Positions 57,752-58,392 of a stretch of DNA of 64,000 nt are shown one piece after another. Every line of letters begins with the position of its first letter. The first letter of the stretch is position 1. The notes under the pieces are model-generated. The model saw only the letters and a program-made list of their open reading frames with translations, had not been told where the DNA came from and did no database searches. The stretch is from a virus, in the UHGV virus genome UHGV-0373904; one strand, 5' to 3'. The position numbers and the translations under genes were made by a program.

Positions 57752-58150
57752 ATGAAAACAGAATCTAGAGTAATTAATGGTAAGAAAGTAAATATCGTTC
57801 TGCTTGGGGCGAGAGATGGTATTAAGATGTCTATGAAGTTGGGTAAAATTGTTGTTCCAACTTTTGCACAGATGCTGTCAAGTCTGACTGACAAGGGTAA
57901 GAAAGAAGCTCCAATGGTTCCATTTAAAGAACTTGTTGAAGCTTGTTTTGACAGAATTGAAGAAATTAACCTTGAAGAAATGGCTACCCTGTTATTTCAA
58001 GGGGCAACTGTTGATGACTTCCCACTTAATATTGATACGTACTTCCAAGCAAACTACGGTGAGTTTATTGATTACTTAGCATTTGCGCTGGAGGCAAACT
58101 TCGGAAGTTTTTTCGAAGCAAGCATTTTCAAAAGCCTAACTTCTCAGTAA
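57752..58150 (+). CDS. tail assembly chaperone (G-like)
   Basis: 132 aa directly upstream of tape measure; slippery heptamer near its 3' end. Confidence 0.55.
   Translation: MKTESRVINGKKVNIVLLGARDGIKMSMKLGKIVVPTFAQMLSSLTDKGKKEAPMVPFKELVEACFDRIEEINLEEMATLLFQGATVDDFPLNIDTYFQANYGEFIDYLAFALEANFGSFFEASIFKSLTSQ
58108..58114 (+). other. predicted programmed -1 ribosomal frameshift site (T_TTT_TTC)
   Basis: X_XXY_YYZ heptamer in frame of ORF 57752; the -1 frame is open from 58114 through ORF 58153-58392. Confidence 0.5.
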
Positions 58151-58152
58151 AC

Positions 58153-58391
58153 ATGGGTAACACTCTACAGACACCACTAACTGATGCTGCTGTAGAGGCA
58201 ACCTATGAAGAAGCAGACGAGATGAAATTTGTGCTTGCTATTTATGGTATGGAAGGGTGTAAAGAAACACTTGACCAACTCTTTGCTATGACATTCTCTG
58301 ATTTATTATCATTGAGACAATTTCTTGAGATTCAGAGGTCGTATAAAGAGGAAATTGCTTACAACGAACTTAGAAGAGCAGGAAAAATGTA

Positions 58392-58392
<1 letters not shown>
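58153..58392 (+). CDS. tail assembly chaperone C-terminal extension (GT-like)
   Basis: 79 aa; likely expressed mainly as a frameshift fusion with the upstream chaperone. Confidence 0.5.

What the first reader, a model, noticed from the sequence alone, without database searches (positions are those of the whole stretch)
58108..58392. Predicted programmed -1 frameshift joining the two tail-chaperone ORFs
The heptamer T_TTT_TTC (58108-58114) lies in frame near the end of the 132-aa chaperone ORF. After a -1 slip the reading frame is open with no stop through the 79-aa ORF 58153-58392, giving a G/GT-like fusion as in many tailed phages. The track shows the two ORFs as separate.
Basis: partly seen in the sequence, partly recalled or inferred. 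Interest (0 to 1): 0.45.

Follow-up and report, generated by a model that had tools for sequence, protein, structure and literature searches.

The report
Tail chaperone frameshift, already annotated elsewhere
The slippery T_TTT_TTC site really is there and almost certainly makes a 213-residue fused tail-assembly chaperone by a -1 ribosomal frameshift, but the same site and product are already annotated in close relatives of this Felix O1-like phage, so it is ordinary.

Summary
The window is a Felixounavirus (Felix O1-like myophage) tail module: sheath, tube, chaperone ORF, 79-aa ORF, tape measure. TTTTTTC lies at 58108-58114 in the phase AG_T TTT TTC of the 132-aa chaperone ORF (Pfam Phage_TAC_15). 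The -1 frame is open from 58072 to the stop at 58390-58392, so a slip gives a 213-aa G-T fusion.

One genome alone is weak evidence, with about a 0.1 chance of such a heptamer in the overlap. Comparison is decisive:
- All 35 relatives examined that keep the split architecture (chaperone identity 100% to 39%) carry the same in-phase heptamer.
- The downstream ORF's ATG has no Shine-Dalgarno sequence and is missing in several lineages.
- A Buttiauxella prophage without the heptamer encodes a single 201-aa protein collinear with the predicted fusion across the junction.

No conserved downstream stimulatory structure was found. An upstream GGAGG, 13 nt away, is lineage-specific.

The fusion proteins deposited for phages Mushroom, Moogle and Michonne are exactly what a slip at this heptamer gives. 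Two genome announcements state the frameshift. I found no experimental proof for this phage group.

Verdict: observation confirmed, interpretation supported, already known, low interest.

The parts
57752..58150 (+). Zero-frame tail assembly chaperone ORF ('G', 132 aa)
   Evidence: ORF list. Pfam PF21822 Phage_TAC_15 at E 1.7e-19, 71 bits. phrog_1613 and phrog_3840, both tail assembly chaperone. SD-like AAGGA upstream, duplex dG -6.1 kcal/mol.
58108..58114 (+). Slippery heptamer T_TTT_TTC (zero-frame codons 120-121, Phe-Phe)
   Evidence: Sequence and phase. Conserved in phase in 35 of 35 split-architecture relatives. Michonne's record notes 'ribosomal slippage (47149)', which falls inside the homologous heptamer. 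Nucleotide conservation peaks here.
58114..58392 (+). -1-frame extension ('T' part, 92 codons plus stop); base 58114 is read twice
   Evidence: Open -1 frame. 5 of the 6 variable sites among close relatives are third codon positions of this frame. Protein-level conservation down to distant relatives. Collinear with the C-terminal half of the Buttiauxella 201-aa protein.
58153..58392 (+). The 79-aa ORF as usually annotated (an ATG inside the -1-frame extension)
   Evidence: ORF list and phrog_4963. The ATG has no SD, with duplex dG -0.1 against -5.1 to -12.6 kcal/mol for 13 neighbouring genes. The ATG is ATA in the close relative L013 and there is no start codon near that position in L008, L039, L040, L038, L042 and L043.
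58072..58150 (+). Overlap in which both frames are open (the only place a productive -1 shift can occur)
   Evidence: The -1-frame TGA at 58069-58071 and the zero-frame TAA at 58148-58150. In L042 a -1-frame TAG directly precedes the heptamer, which excludes any shift site further upstream.
58090..58094 (+). GGAGG, a possible Shine-Dalgarno-like upstream stimulator, 13 nt before the heptamer (inferred)
   Evidence: Sequence. Invariant in 26 close relatives and present in the Mooglevirus groups, but replaced by GAAGC, GAAAA or GGAAG in L038, L039 and L009. Sharma et al. 2014 searched for stimulatory SD-like sequences 6-17 nt upstream of the motif (PMC4066793).
58115..58137 (+). Highly conserved block just 3' of the heptamer, coding in both frames (EASIFKS / RSKHFQKP)
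   Evidence: Mean pairwise nucleotide identity is 0.93-0.95 against about 0.6 background across seven divergent Ounavirinae sequences. It is part of the only stretch (58097-58137) that blastn finds in Erwinia phages. It diverges in L042 and L043 while the heptamer stays. No conserved fold.
57232..57678 (+). Tail tube gene (context, upstream neighbour)
   Evidence: ORF list. Homologues carry PF11681 Phage_Tube_PhiTE. Annotated as a virion structural protein.
58392..60620 (+). Tape measure protein gene (context, downstream neighbour); its ATG overlaps the stop of the -1-frame extension
   Evidence: ORF list. Annotated as tail length tape measure protein in relatives.

Best explanation
This is a programmed -1 ribosomal frameshift in the tail assembly chaperone gene of a Felix O1-like myophage.

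Most ribosomes read 57752-58150 in frame and make the 132-aa chaperone (G). A minority slip back one base when the P and A sites hold UUU and UUC (58109-58114), both decoded by tRNA-Phe, and re-pair on U_UUU_UU. They then read CGA at 58114 and continue in the -1 frame to 58392. The product is a 213-aa protein with the same N-terminal 121 residues and a new 92-residue C-terminal T domain.

By analogy with lambda G/GT and P2 E/E+E', G and G-T coat the tape measure protein. The rare T domain recruits the tube subunit, so the fixed G:G-T ratio controls tail assembly.

What is shown here: the anatomy, the phase, the conservation of the heptamer, the dispensability of the downstream ATG, and the existence of an unsplit homologue. 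What is inferred: that the slip happens, how efficient it is, and what the two products do.
For: - Heptamer in X_XXY_YYZ phase and an open -1 frame.
- Position between the tube and tape measure genes.
- The upstream ORF is Pfam Phage_TAC_15. phrog_3840 aligns to the fusion through residue 151, that is, across the junction into the -1 frame.
- 33 of 33 related loci plus 2 of 2 more distant contigs keep T_TTT_TTC in phase inside the overlap, at chaperone identities from 100% to 39%.
- In L042 a -1-frame stop abuts the heptamer, so the shift cannot be upstream of it.
- The downstream ATG has no SD, is ATA in L013, and has no counterpart in Kolesnikvirus, L038, L042 or L043, where no gene is called or annotated in that gap.
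- The Buttiauxella prophage L041 has non-slippery TCA TTC TTC and instead a separate 201-aa gene. That protein aligns continuously with fusion residues 81-208 across the junction (E 5e-13). The T part alone gives E 1e-7.
- None of 92 database homologues is a natural in-frame fusion, so the split is real and not a sequencing artefact.
- A slip at this heptamer reproduces exactly the deposited frameshift proteins of Mushroom, Moogle and Michonne.
- The frameshift is stated in PMC4319497 and PMC5543628.
- U_UU.Y is the second most shift-prone A-site tetramer in E. coli, and U_UUU_UUC shifts above background in reporters (PMC4066793).
- P2, another myovirus, uses TTTTTTG without a downstream structure (PMC3091744).
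Against: - I found no direct experimental evidence (fusion protein, reporter assay, mutant) for any Felix O1-like phage.
- In one genome the heptamer alone has about a 0.1 chance of occurring.
- In E. coli reporters U_UUU_UUC without a stimulator shifts only 0.12%, against a background of 0.055%.
- No conserved downstream hairpin or pseudoknot at canonical spacing was found. The upstream GGAGG is not conserved across the subfamily.
- In this window an ATG lies 2 nt after the zero-frame stop, so some free 79-aa product by termination-reinitiation cannot be excluded.
Confidence: 0.85

Rival explanations
1. The two ORFs are translated separately. The 79-aa protein starts at its own ATG (58153), for instance by termination-reinitiation after the TAA at 58148-58150, and no fusion is needed.
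For: The ATG lies 2 nt after the zero-frame stop. Most GenBank records annotate two separate proteins. The ATG is present in most close relatives.
Against: The ATG has no SD, with dG -0.1 kcal/mol against -5.1 to -12.6 for neighbouring genes. It is ATA in L013 and absent in Kolesnikvirus, L038, L042 and L043. The -1-frame peptide upstream of the ATG (RSKHFQKP...) is conserved and matches the Buttiauxella unsplit protein. The heptamer is conserved in every relative.
Confidence: 0.07
2. The same 213-aa fusion is made by transcriptional slippage. RNA polymerase adds one extra U on the T6 run, and the edited mRNA is read in one frame (AGT TTT TTT CGA gives the identical S F F R junction).
For: The site is a homopolymer run and the product would be indistinguishable at the protein level (sequence). 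A weak upstream hairpin followed by the T-run was flagged as terminator-like, which could pause the polymerase.
Against: From my own knowledge, documented bacterial transcriptional slippage generally needs runs of about 8-9 or more A or T bases, and T6 is short. The run never lengthens in any of the 35 relatives. The one T7 record (phage CL1) comes from Ion Torrent sequencing, which is error-prone in homopolymers. The heptamer fits tandem tRNA-Phe re-pairing and shifts in E. coli reporters.
Confidence: 0.05
3. The heptamer is a coincidence of Phe-Phe codons. The downstream ORF is a non-functional remnant or an annotation artefact, and no recoding occurs.
For: The single-genome chance is about 0.1. 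The measured intrinsic shiftiness of U_UUU_UUC is low.
Against: The -1-frame region evolves as a protein, with variation at third positions and conservation at 26-44% identity in distant relatives. It always ends exactly at the tape measure start. The heptamer is conserved where the flanks diverge.
Confidence: 0.03

Closest known systems
Annotated frameshift chaperones of Salmonella phage Mushroom (YP_009600435.1), Citrobacter phages Moogle (YP_009145710.1) and Michonne (YP_009177317.1)
   Same: These are the same gene, the same heptamer and the same junction. A slip at T_TTT_TTC in their DNA reproduces the deposited proteins exactly. Mushroom belongs to the same genus and is 98% identical in DNA. 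The window's fusion differs from Mushroom's at 2 residues.
   Different: The window's own 213-aa sequence is not deposited. Its nearest records (KhF3, skuden) annotate two separate ORFs. The deposited frameshifts are predictions, not experimental results.
Phage P2 E / E+E' (-1 frameshift at TTTTTTG; Christie et al. 2002, as summarised in PMC3091744)
   Same: A contractile-tailed phage with the chaperone gene upstream of the tape measure gene. It has a T6 run with tandem Phe codons, a -1 shift, no downstream RNA structure, and a short (91 aa) and a long (142 aa) product from one start.
   Different: P2's last base is G rather than C. It belongs to a different chaperone family, since no sequence similarity was seen and Pfam places this protein in Phage_TAC_15. 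P2's frameshift has been shown experimentally.
Phage lambda G / G-T (Levin 1993; Xu, Hendrix and Duda 2004, 2013, 2014, as summarised in PMC5009743)
   Same: Two overlapping ORFs lie between the major tail gene and the tape measure gene. A low-level -1 frameshift fixes the ratio of the products, and neither product is in the virion. G binds the tape measure and T binds the tail tube subunit.
   Different: Lambda is a siphovirus. From my own knowledge, its slip site is G_GGA_AAG. No detectable sequence homology. The function of the T domain here is inferred only.
E. coli dnaX and IS911-type -1 frameshift signals
   Same: A heptamer with a possible upstream Shine-Dalgarno-like stimulator. Here GGAGG lies 13 nt upstream, within the 6-17 nt range that Sharma et al. 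searched.
   Different: No downstream hairpin at 5-9 nt. The SD-like element is confined to Felixounavirus and Mooglevirus.

Membership tests
Conserved tail-assembly-chaperone frameshift of tailed phages (lambda G/G-T type, Xu-Hendrix-Duda 2004) | Two ORFs located between the major tail (tube) gene and the tape measure gene | tested here: met
   The order is tube 57232-57678, ORFs 57752-58150 and 58153-58392, then tape measure 58392-60620. Relatives' annotations agree.
Conserved tail-assembly-chaperone frameshift of tailed phages (lambda G/G-T type, Xu-Hendrix-Duda 2004) | The second ORF is in the -1 frame and that frame is open back across the end of the first ORF | tested here: met
   The -1 frame is open from 58072 to 58392 and overlaps the first ORF by 79 nt.
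Conserved tail-assembly-chaperone frameshift of tailed phages (lambda G/G-T type, Xu-Hendrix-Duda 2004) | A slippery X_XXY_YYZ sequence in zero-frame phase inside the overlap | tested here: met
   T_TTT_TTC at 58108-58114, where 58108 is a third codon position.
Conserved tail-assembly-chaperone frameshift of tailed phages (lambda G/G-T type, Xu-Hendrix-Duda 2004) | The slip site is conserved among relatives whose flanking sequence has diverged | tested here: met
   35 of 35 loci with the split architecture keep it. There is a nucleotide conservation peak at the site. The flanks diverge in L042 and L043.
Conserved tail-assembly-chaperone frameshift of tailed phages (lambda G/G-T type, Xu-Hendrix-Duda 2004) | The second ORF lacks its own translation start signals | tested here: met
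   An ATG is present in the window but has no SD. There is no start codon near that position in L013, L008, L039, L040, L038, L042 or L043.
Conserved tail-assembly-chaperone frameshift of tailed phages (lambda G/G-T type, Xu-Hendrix-Duda 2004) | The fusion protein is made at a low fixed ratio and is required for tail assembly | not testable with these tools
   This needs protein detection and genetics. No such data were found for Felix O1-like phages.
Pfam PF21822 Phage_TAC_15 (tail assembly chaperone) | Score above the family's gathering threshold over most of the model | tested here: met
   71 bits against a cut-off of 22, covering model positions 1-124 of 127. All 92 homologues carry PF21822.
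Stimulated -1 PRF signals (dnaX / IS911 / IS3 type) | A downstream hairpin or pseudoknot about 5-9 nt after the heptamer, conserved or covarying | tested here: not met
   The 61 nt after the heptamer fold at -3.4 kcal/mol, z +1.2. The alignment fold gives -1.6 kcal/mol with no compensatory pairs. No Rfam match.
Stimulated -1 PRF signals (dnaX / IS911 / IS3 type) | An upstream Shine-Dalgarno-like sequence 6-17 nt before the heptamer | tested here: inconclusive
   GGAGG at 58090-58094, 13 nt upstream, is invariant in 26 close relatives but absent in L038, L039 and L009.
Transcriptional slippage sites | A long homopolymer run (about 8-9 nt or more, from my own knowledge) | tested here: not met
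   The run is T6 in the window and in all relatives. The only T7 is an Ion Torrent assembly.

The most novel reading that the evidence does not exclude
The frameshift depends on a stimulator of a non-canonical kind. The candidate is the 22-30 nt block directly 3' of the heptamer (58115-58137), which is 93-95% identical across Ounavirinae genera without forming a conserved hairpin. It might act through rRNA pairing or through the nascent peptide, possibly together with the lineage-specific upstream GGAGG. This would explain how a heptamer that shifts only about 0.1% in unstimulated reporters yields enough G-T. A related possibility is that the unusually low nucleotide diversity of the whole T part (58112-58411) among Felixounaviruses reflects a second embedded function. 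Coding in both frames already explains most of the block's conservation, and the block diverges in L042 and L043 while the heptamer stays.
Probability: 0.07. Interest if true: 0.4.

Novelty: already known. Interest (0 to 1): 0.12.

Why it matters
The practical value is for annotation. Most of the roughly 300 Felix O1-like genome records, including the nearest relatives of this window, list two separate small proteins, and some misname them as 'head closure protein' or 'tape-measure protein'. The biologically relevant products are most likely a 132-aa chaperone and a 213-aa frameshift fusion. The result adds no new principle. It is one more instance of the chaperone frameshift conserved across tailed phages, at a site other annotators have already marked. 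The Buttiauxella prophage, where the frameshift is replaced by a separate full-length G'-T gene, is a neat natural control showing that T must be tethered to a G-like domain.

Tried and rejected
- **Downstream stimulatory structure.** Single-sequence folds of the 61 and 101 nt after the heptamer in four phages, and an alignment fold of seven divergent sequences, gave nothing conserved at canonical spacing. The window and Moogle have a hairpin from about 58152 to 58207 (z -2.1 and -1.8), but it starts about 38 nt after the heptamer and is not seen in the distant relatives.
- **Rfam.** A scan of 57600-58500 at E up to 1 gave only two sub-threshold chance hits, GibS and Fwd6_3p_UTR.
- **Long-range pairing.** The 9-bp pairing of 58117-58125 with 58231-58239 is kept in Felixounavirus and Mooglevirus only. 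About 0.7 such helices are expected by chance by my own estimate, so I rejected it.
- **Phage CL1's single fused 642-nt ORF (T7)** as evidence for a natural fusion. I rejected it because the genome was sequenced on Ion Torrent S5.
- **Other shift sites in the overlap**, such as C_AAA_AGC. These are not slippery in phase and are not conserved in L042 or L043.
- **Natural in-frame fusions among database homologues.** None among 92 hits, all of 124-136 aa.
- **Solved structures by sequence.** No significant hit.
- **The weak terminator-like hairpin at 58088-58104** before the T-run. It has 6 pairs including 2 G-U pairs, is within the number expected from shuffles, and is not conserved.
- **Papers.** The P2 paper PMC135442 is not held. 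The PhageMaP preprint on a Felixounavirus says nothing about this gene.
- **Not run.** I did not predict a structure for the fusion, because it would not decide any open point.

Full report
**What the window is.** The stretch 57200-58700 is 99.8% identical to Enterobacteria phage KhF3 and Escherichia phage skuden. It matches 295 phage records, nearly all of them Felix O1-like myophages (Ounavirinae, genus Felixounavirus). The local gene order is:
- sheath, 55864-57216
- tube, 57232-57678
- a 132-aa ORF, 57752-58150
- a 79-aa ORF, 58153-58392
- a 742-aa tape measure protein, 58392-60620

The 132-aa ORF matches Pfam PF21822 Phage_TAC_15 at 71 bits against a cut-off of 22. Both ORFs fall in PHROG families annotated as tail assembly chaperone.

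**Checking the observation.** TTTTTTC is at 58108-58114. The ORF starts at 57752, so the zero-frame reading is GGA AGT TTT TTC GAA (G S F F E) and the heptamer has the canonical T_TTT_TTC phase. In the -1 frame a TGA lies at 58069-58071. The frame is then open to the TAA at 58390-58392 and runs in phase through the ATG at 58153. A slip after TTC gives 121 + 92 = 213 residues, with the junction ...ANFGSFF|RSKHFQKPNFSVNMGNT....

**Is it more than chance?** In this genome alone, barely. In-phase XXXYYYZ heptamers occur at 0.004 per codon in the window's long ORFs (68 in 16,753 codons). One in a 25-codon overlap is therefore expected about one time in ten. The evidence that matters is comparative.

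**Comparative evidence.**

*Loci examined.* I fetched 31 related loci from IMG/VR, several annotated GenBank regions and three more distant contigs.

*Conservation of the heptamer.* All 33 relatives analysed have T_TTT_TTC in the same phase inside the overlap of the two frames. Their chaperone identity ranges from 100% down to 39%, and they cover Felixounavirus, Mooglevirus, Kolesnikvirus (Erwinia phage phiEa21-4), Yersinia phage P778 and unnamed lineages. Two further contigs at about 47-52% identity (L042, L043) also have it. In L042 a -1-frame TAG directly abuts the heptamer, so the shift cannot take place further upstream. In L042 and L043 the bases after the heptamer have diverged while the heptamer has not.

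*Nucleotide conservation.* Across seven divergent Ounavirinae sequences, identity peaks at 0.93-0.95 over 58106-58135, against about 0.6 elsewhere in the gene. The stretch 58097-58137 is the only part of the query that blastn detects in Erwinia phages.

*Codon-choice estimate.* Given a conserved Ser-Phe-Phe, this phage's codon usage would give a T_TTT_TTY heptamer about 30% of the time per lineage. Its presence in about nine lineages is therefore unlikely without selection, of order 1e-5 if they are treated as independent. This is a rough figure.

**The downstream ORF is not an independent gene.**
- Its ATG has no Shine-Dalgarno pairing. The duplex energy with the 16S 3' end is -0.1 kcal/mol, against -5.1 to -12.6 for the 13 neighbouring genes.
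- In the close relative L013 the ATG is ATA.
- In Kolesnikvirus, L038, L042 and L043 there is no ATG, GTG or TTG near the start of the -1-frame region. Gene callers and annotators leave a gap of about 240 nt there.
- The region nevertheless evolves as a protein in the -1 frame. Five of six variable sites among 24 distinct close relatives are third positions of that frame, and the peptide is conserved in distant relatives.
- The conserved -1-frame peptide begins at the heptamer (FFRSKHFQKP), not at the ATG.

**A natural control.** A Buttiauxella noackiae prophage (L041) has a 126-aa homologue of the chaperone. Its Ser-Phe-Phe is encoded TCA TTC TTC, which is not slippery, and the -1 frame is closed at that point. 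It is followed by a separate 201-aa gene with its own ATG. That protein aligns without interruption to residues 81-208 of the predicted fusion, straight across the junction (NFGSF--FRSKHFQKPNF against NFGVFLSFVVKPFVKPDF; E 5e-13). The T part alone gives E 1e-7. Where the frameshift is absent, therefore, the T domain still comes attached to a G-like domain. Conversely, none of 92 database homologues of the chaperone is a natural in-frame fusion. The one GenBank record with a fused ORF (phage CL1, with T7 instead of T6) comes from Ion Torrent sequencing and is best read as a homopolymer error.

**Mechanism.**

*The slip.* The most likely mechanism is tandem slippage of the two tRNA-Phe molecules from UUU UUC to U_UUU_UU, followed by reading of CGA at 58114.

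*Measured shiftiness of the heptamer.* Sharma et al. (PMC4066793) rank U_UU.Y as the second most shift-prone A-site tetramer in E. coli. In their reporter system they measured U_UUU_UUC at these rates:

| Reporter context | Frameshifting |
|---|---|
| No-motif background (without stimulator) | 0.055% |
| No stimulator | 0.12% |
| IS911 stimulators | 0.89% |
| IS3 pseudoknot | 7.6% |

*Search for stimulators.*
- The 61 nt after the heptamer fold no better than shuffles.
- An alignment fold shows no covarying pairs.
- Rfam has no match.
- A hairpin from about 58152 to 58207 is too far downstream to be a canonical stimulator.
- A GGAGG lies 13 nt upstream (58090-58094), within the range in which SD-like stimulators were searched. 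It is invariant in close relatives but absent in three more distant lineages, so it is at most a lineage-specific enhancer.
- The conserved block 3' of the heptamer is adequately explained by coding in both frames. Almost every substitution there changes one of two conserved peptides, which is my inference from the frame geometry.

P2, the best-studied contractile-tail case, slips on TTTTTTG and also lacks a downstream structure (PMC3091744). The efficiency here is unknown.

*Function of the products.* The functional model is taken from lambda as summarised in PMC5009743: G and G-T coat the tape measure, and T recruits the tube subunit. It is inferred here, not shown.

**Rivals.**
- Separate initiation of the 79-aa ORF is contradicted by the missing SD and the non-conserved ATG. 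A small amount of free T by reinitiation cannot be excluded in this particular phage.
- Transcriptional slippage would give the identical protein. It cannot be excluded from sequence alone, but T6 is short for it (my own knowledge).
- A chance heptamer with a dead downstream ORF is contradicted by the conservation data.

**Is it known?** Yes.
- The RefSeq and GenBank records of Salmonella phage Mushroom (same genus, 98% identical), Citrobacter phage Moogle and Citrobacter phage Michonne carry a joined CDS for this gene. Michonne's is noted 'ribosomal slippage (47149)', which falls inside the homologous heptamer.
- The proteins I derived by slipping at T_TTT_TTC in those genomes are exactly the deposited sequences YP_009600435.1, YP_009145710.1 and YP_009177317.1.
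- The genome announcements of Moogle and Mijalis state the frameshift and cite Xu, Hendrix and Duda 2004.
- The window's own 213-aa product differs from Mushroom's at two residues and is not itself deposited. Most related records still show two separate ORFs.
- I found no experimental demonstration for this phage group.

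Noticed in passing
window 57689-57726: A strong intrinsic-terminator-like hairpin (13-bp stem, 6 G-C pairs, then a T-run) lies between the tube gene and the chaperone gene. Michonne's record annotates a terminator at the same place. It may attenuate transcription so that chaperone and tape measure are made at lower levels than sheath and tube.
   Followed up: partly
window 58112-58411: Among 14 colinear Felixounavirus sequences, the whole -1-frame T part plus the tape measure start has only 4 variable columns in 300 nt. The chaperone G part and the tape measure gene have 5-10 or more per 60 nt. At deeper divergence the T part is no more conserved than the G part. This could reflect a recent sweep or mosaic segment, or an extra constraint; it is unexplained. 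A similar low-diversity island lies at 56852-57271, from the sheath 3' end into the start of the tube gene.
   Followed up: partly
L041 2501-3486 (Buttiauxella noackiae JPRU01000001.1, prophage region): A distant homologue of the module has no slippery heptamer. It encodes the short chaperone (126 aa) and a full-length G'-T protein (201 aa) as two separate genes upstream of a tape measure gene. The frameshift appears to have been replaced by a duplicated gene.
   Followed up: partly
L007 (Escherichia phage CL1, OK040806.1) 801-1442: The record has T7 instead of T6 at the slip site, giving a single fused 642-nt 'tape measure chaperone' ORF. The genome was sequenced on Ion Torrent S5, so this is probably a homopolymer error.
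   Followed up: yes
window 58152-58207: A local hairpin is predicted in the window (101-nt fold at -24.5 kcal/mol, z -2.1) and at the matching place in Moogle (z -1.8). It starts about 38 nt after the heptamer and is not evident in distant relatives. It is too far downstream for a canonical frameshift stimulator, and its role, if any, is unknown.
   Followed up: partly
public records matching window 57200-58700: Several public records look mislabelled. 'Campylobacter phage A132' (MG065664.1) is 98.3% identical to this Felixounavirus stretch. A 132-aa protein in the same 90%-identity cluster as the chaperone is deposited under Staphylococcus hyicus (WP_252560994.1). In some records these ORFs are named 'head closure protein' or 'tape-measure protein', as in C600M2, VpaE1_ev108 and BPSELC-1.
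   Followed up: no
window 58117-58125 and 58231-58239: A 9-bp complementarity (AGCAAGCAT with GTGCTTGCT) is kept in the Felixounavirus and Mooglevirus lineages but not in more distant relatives. About 0.7 such helices are expected by chance by my own estimate, so I treat it as coincidence.
   Followed up: yes
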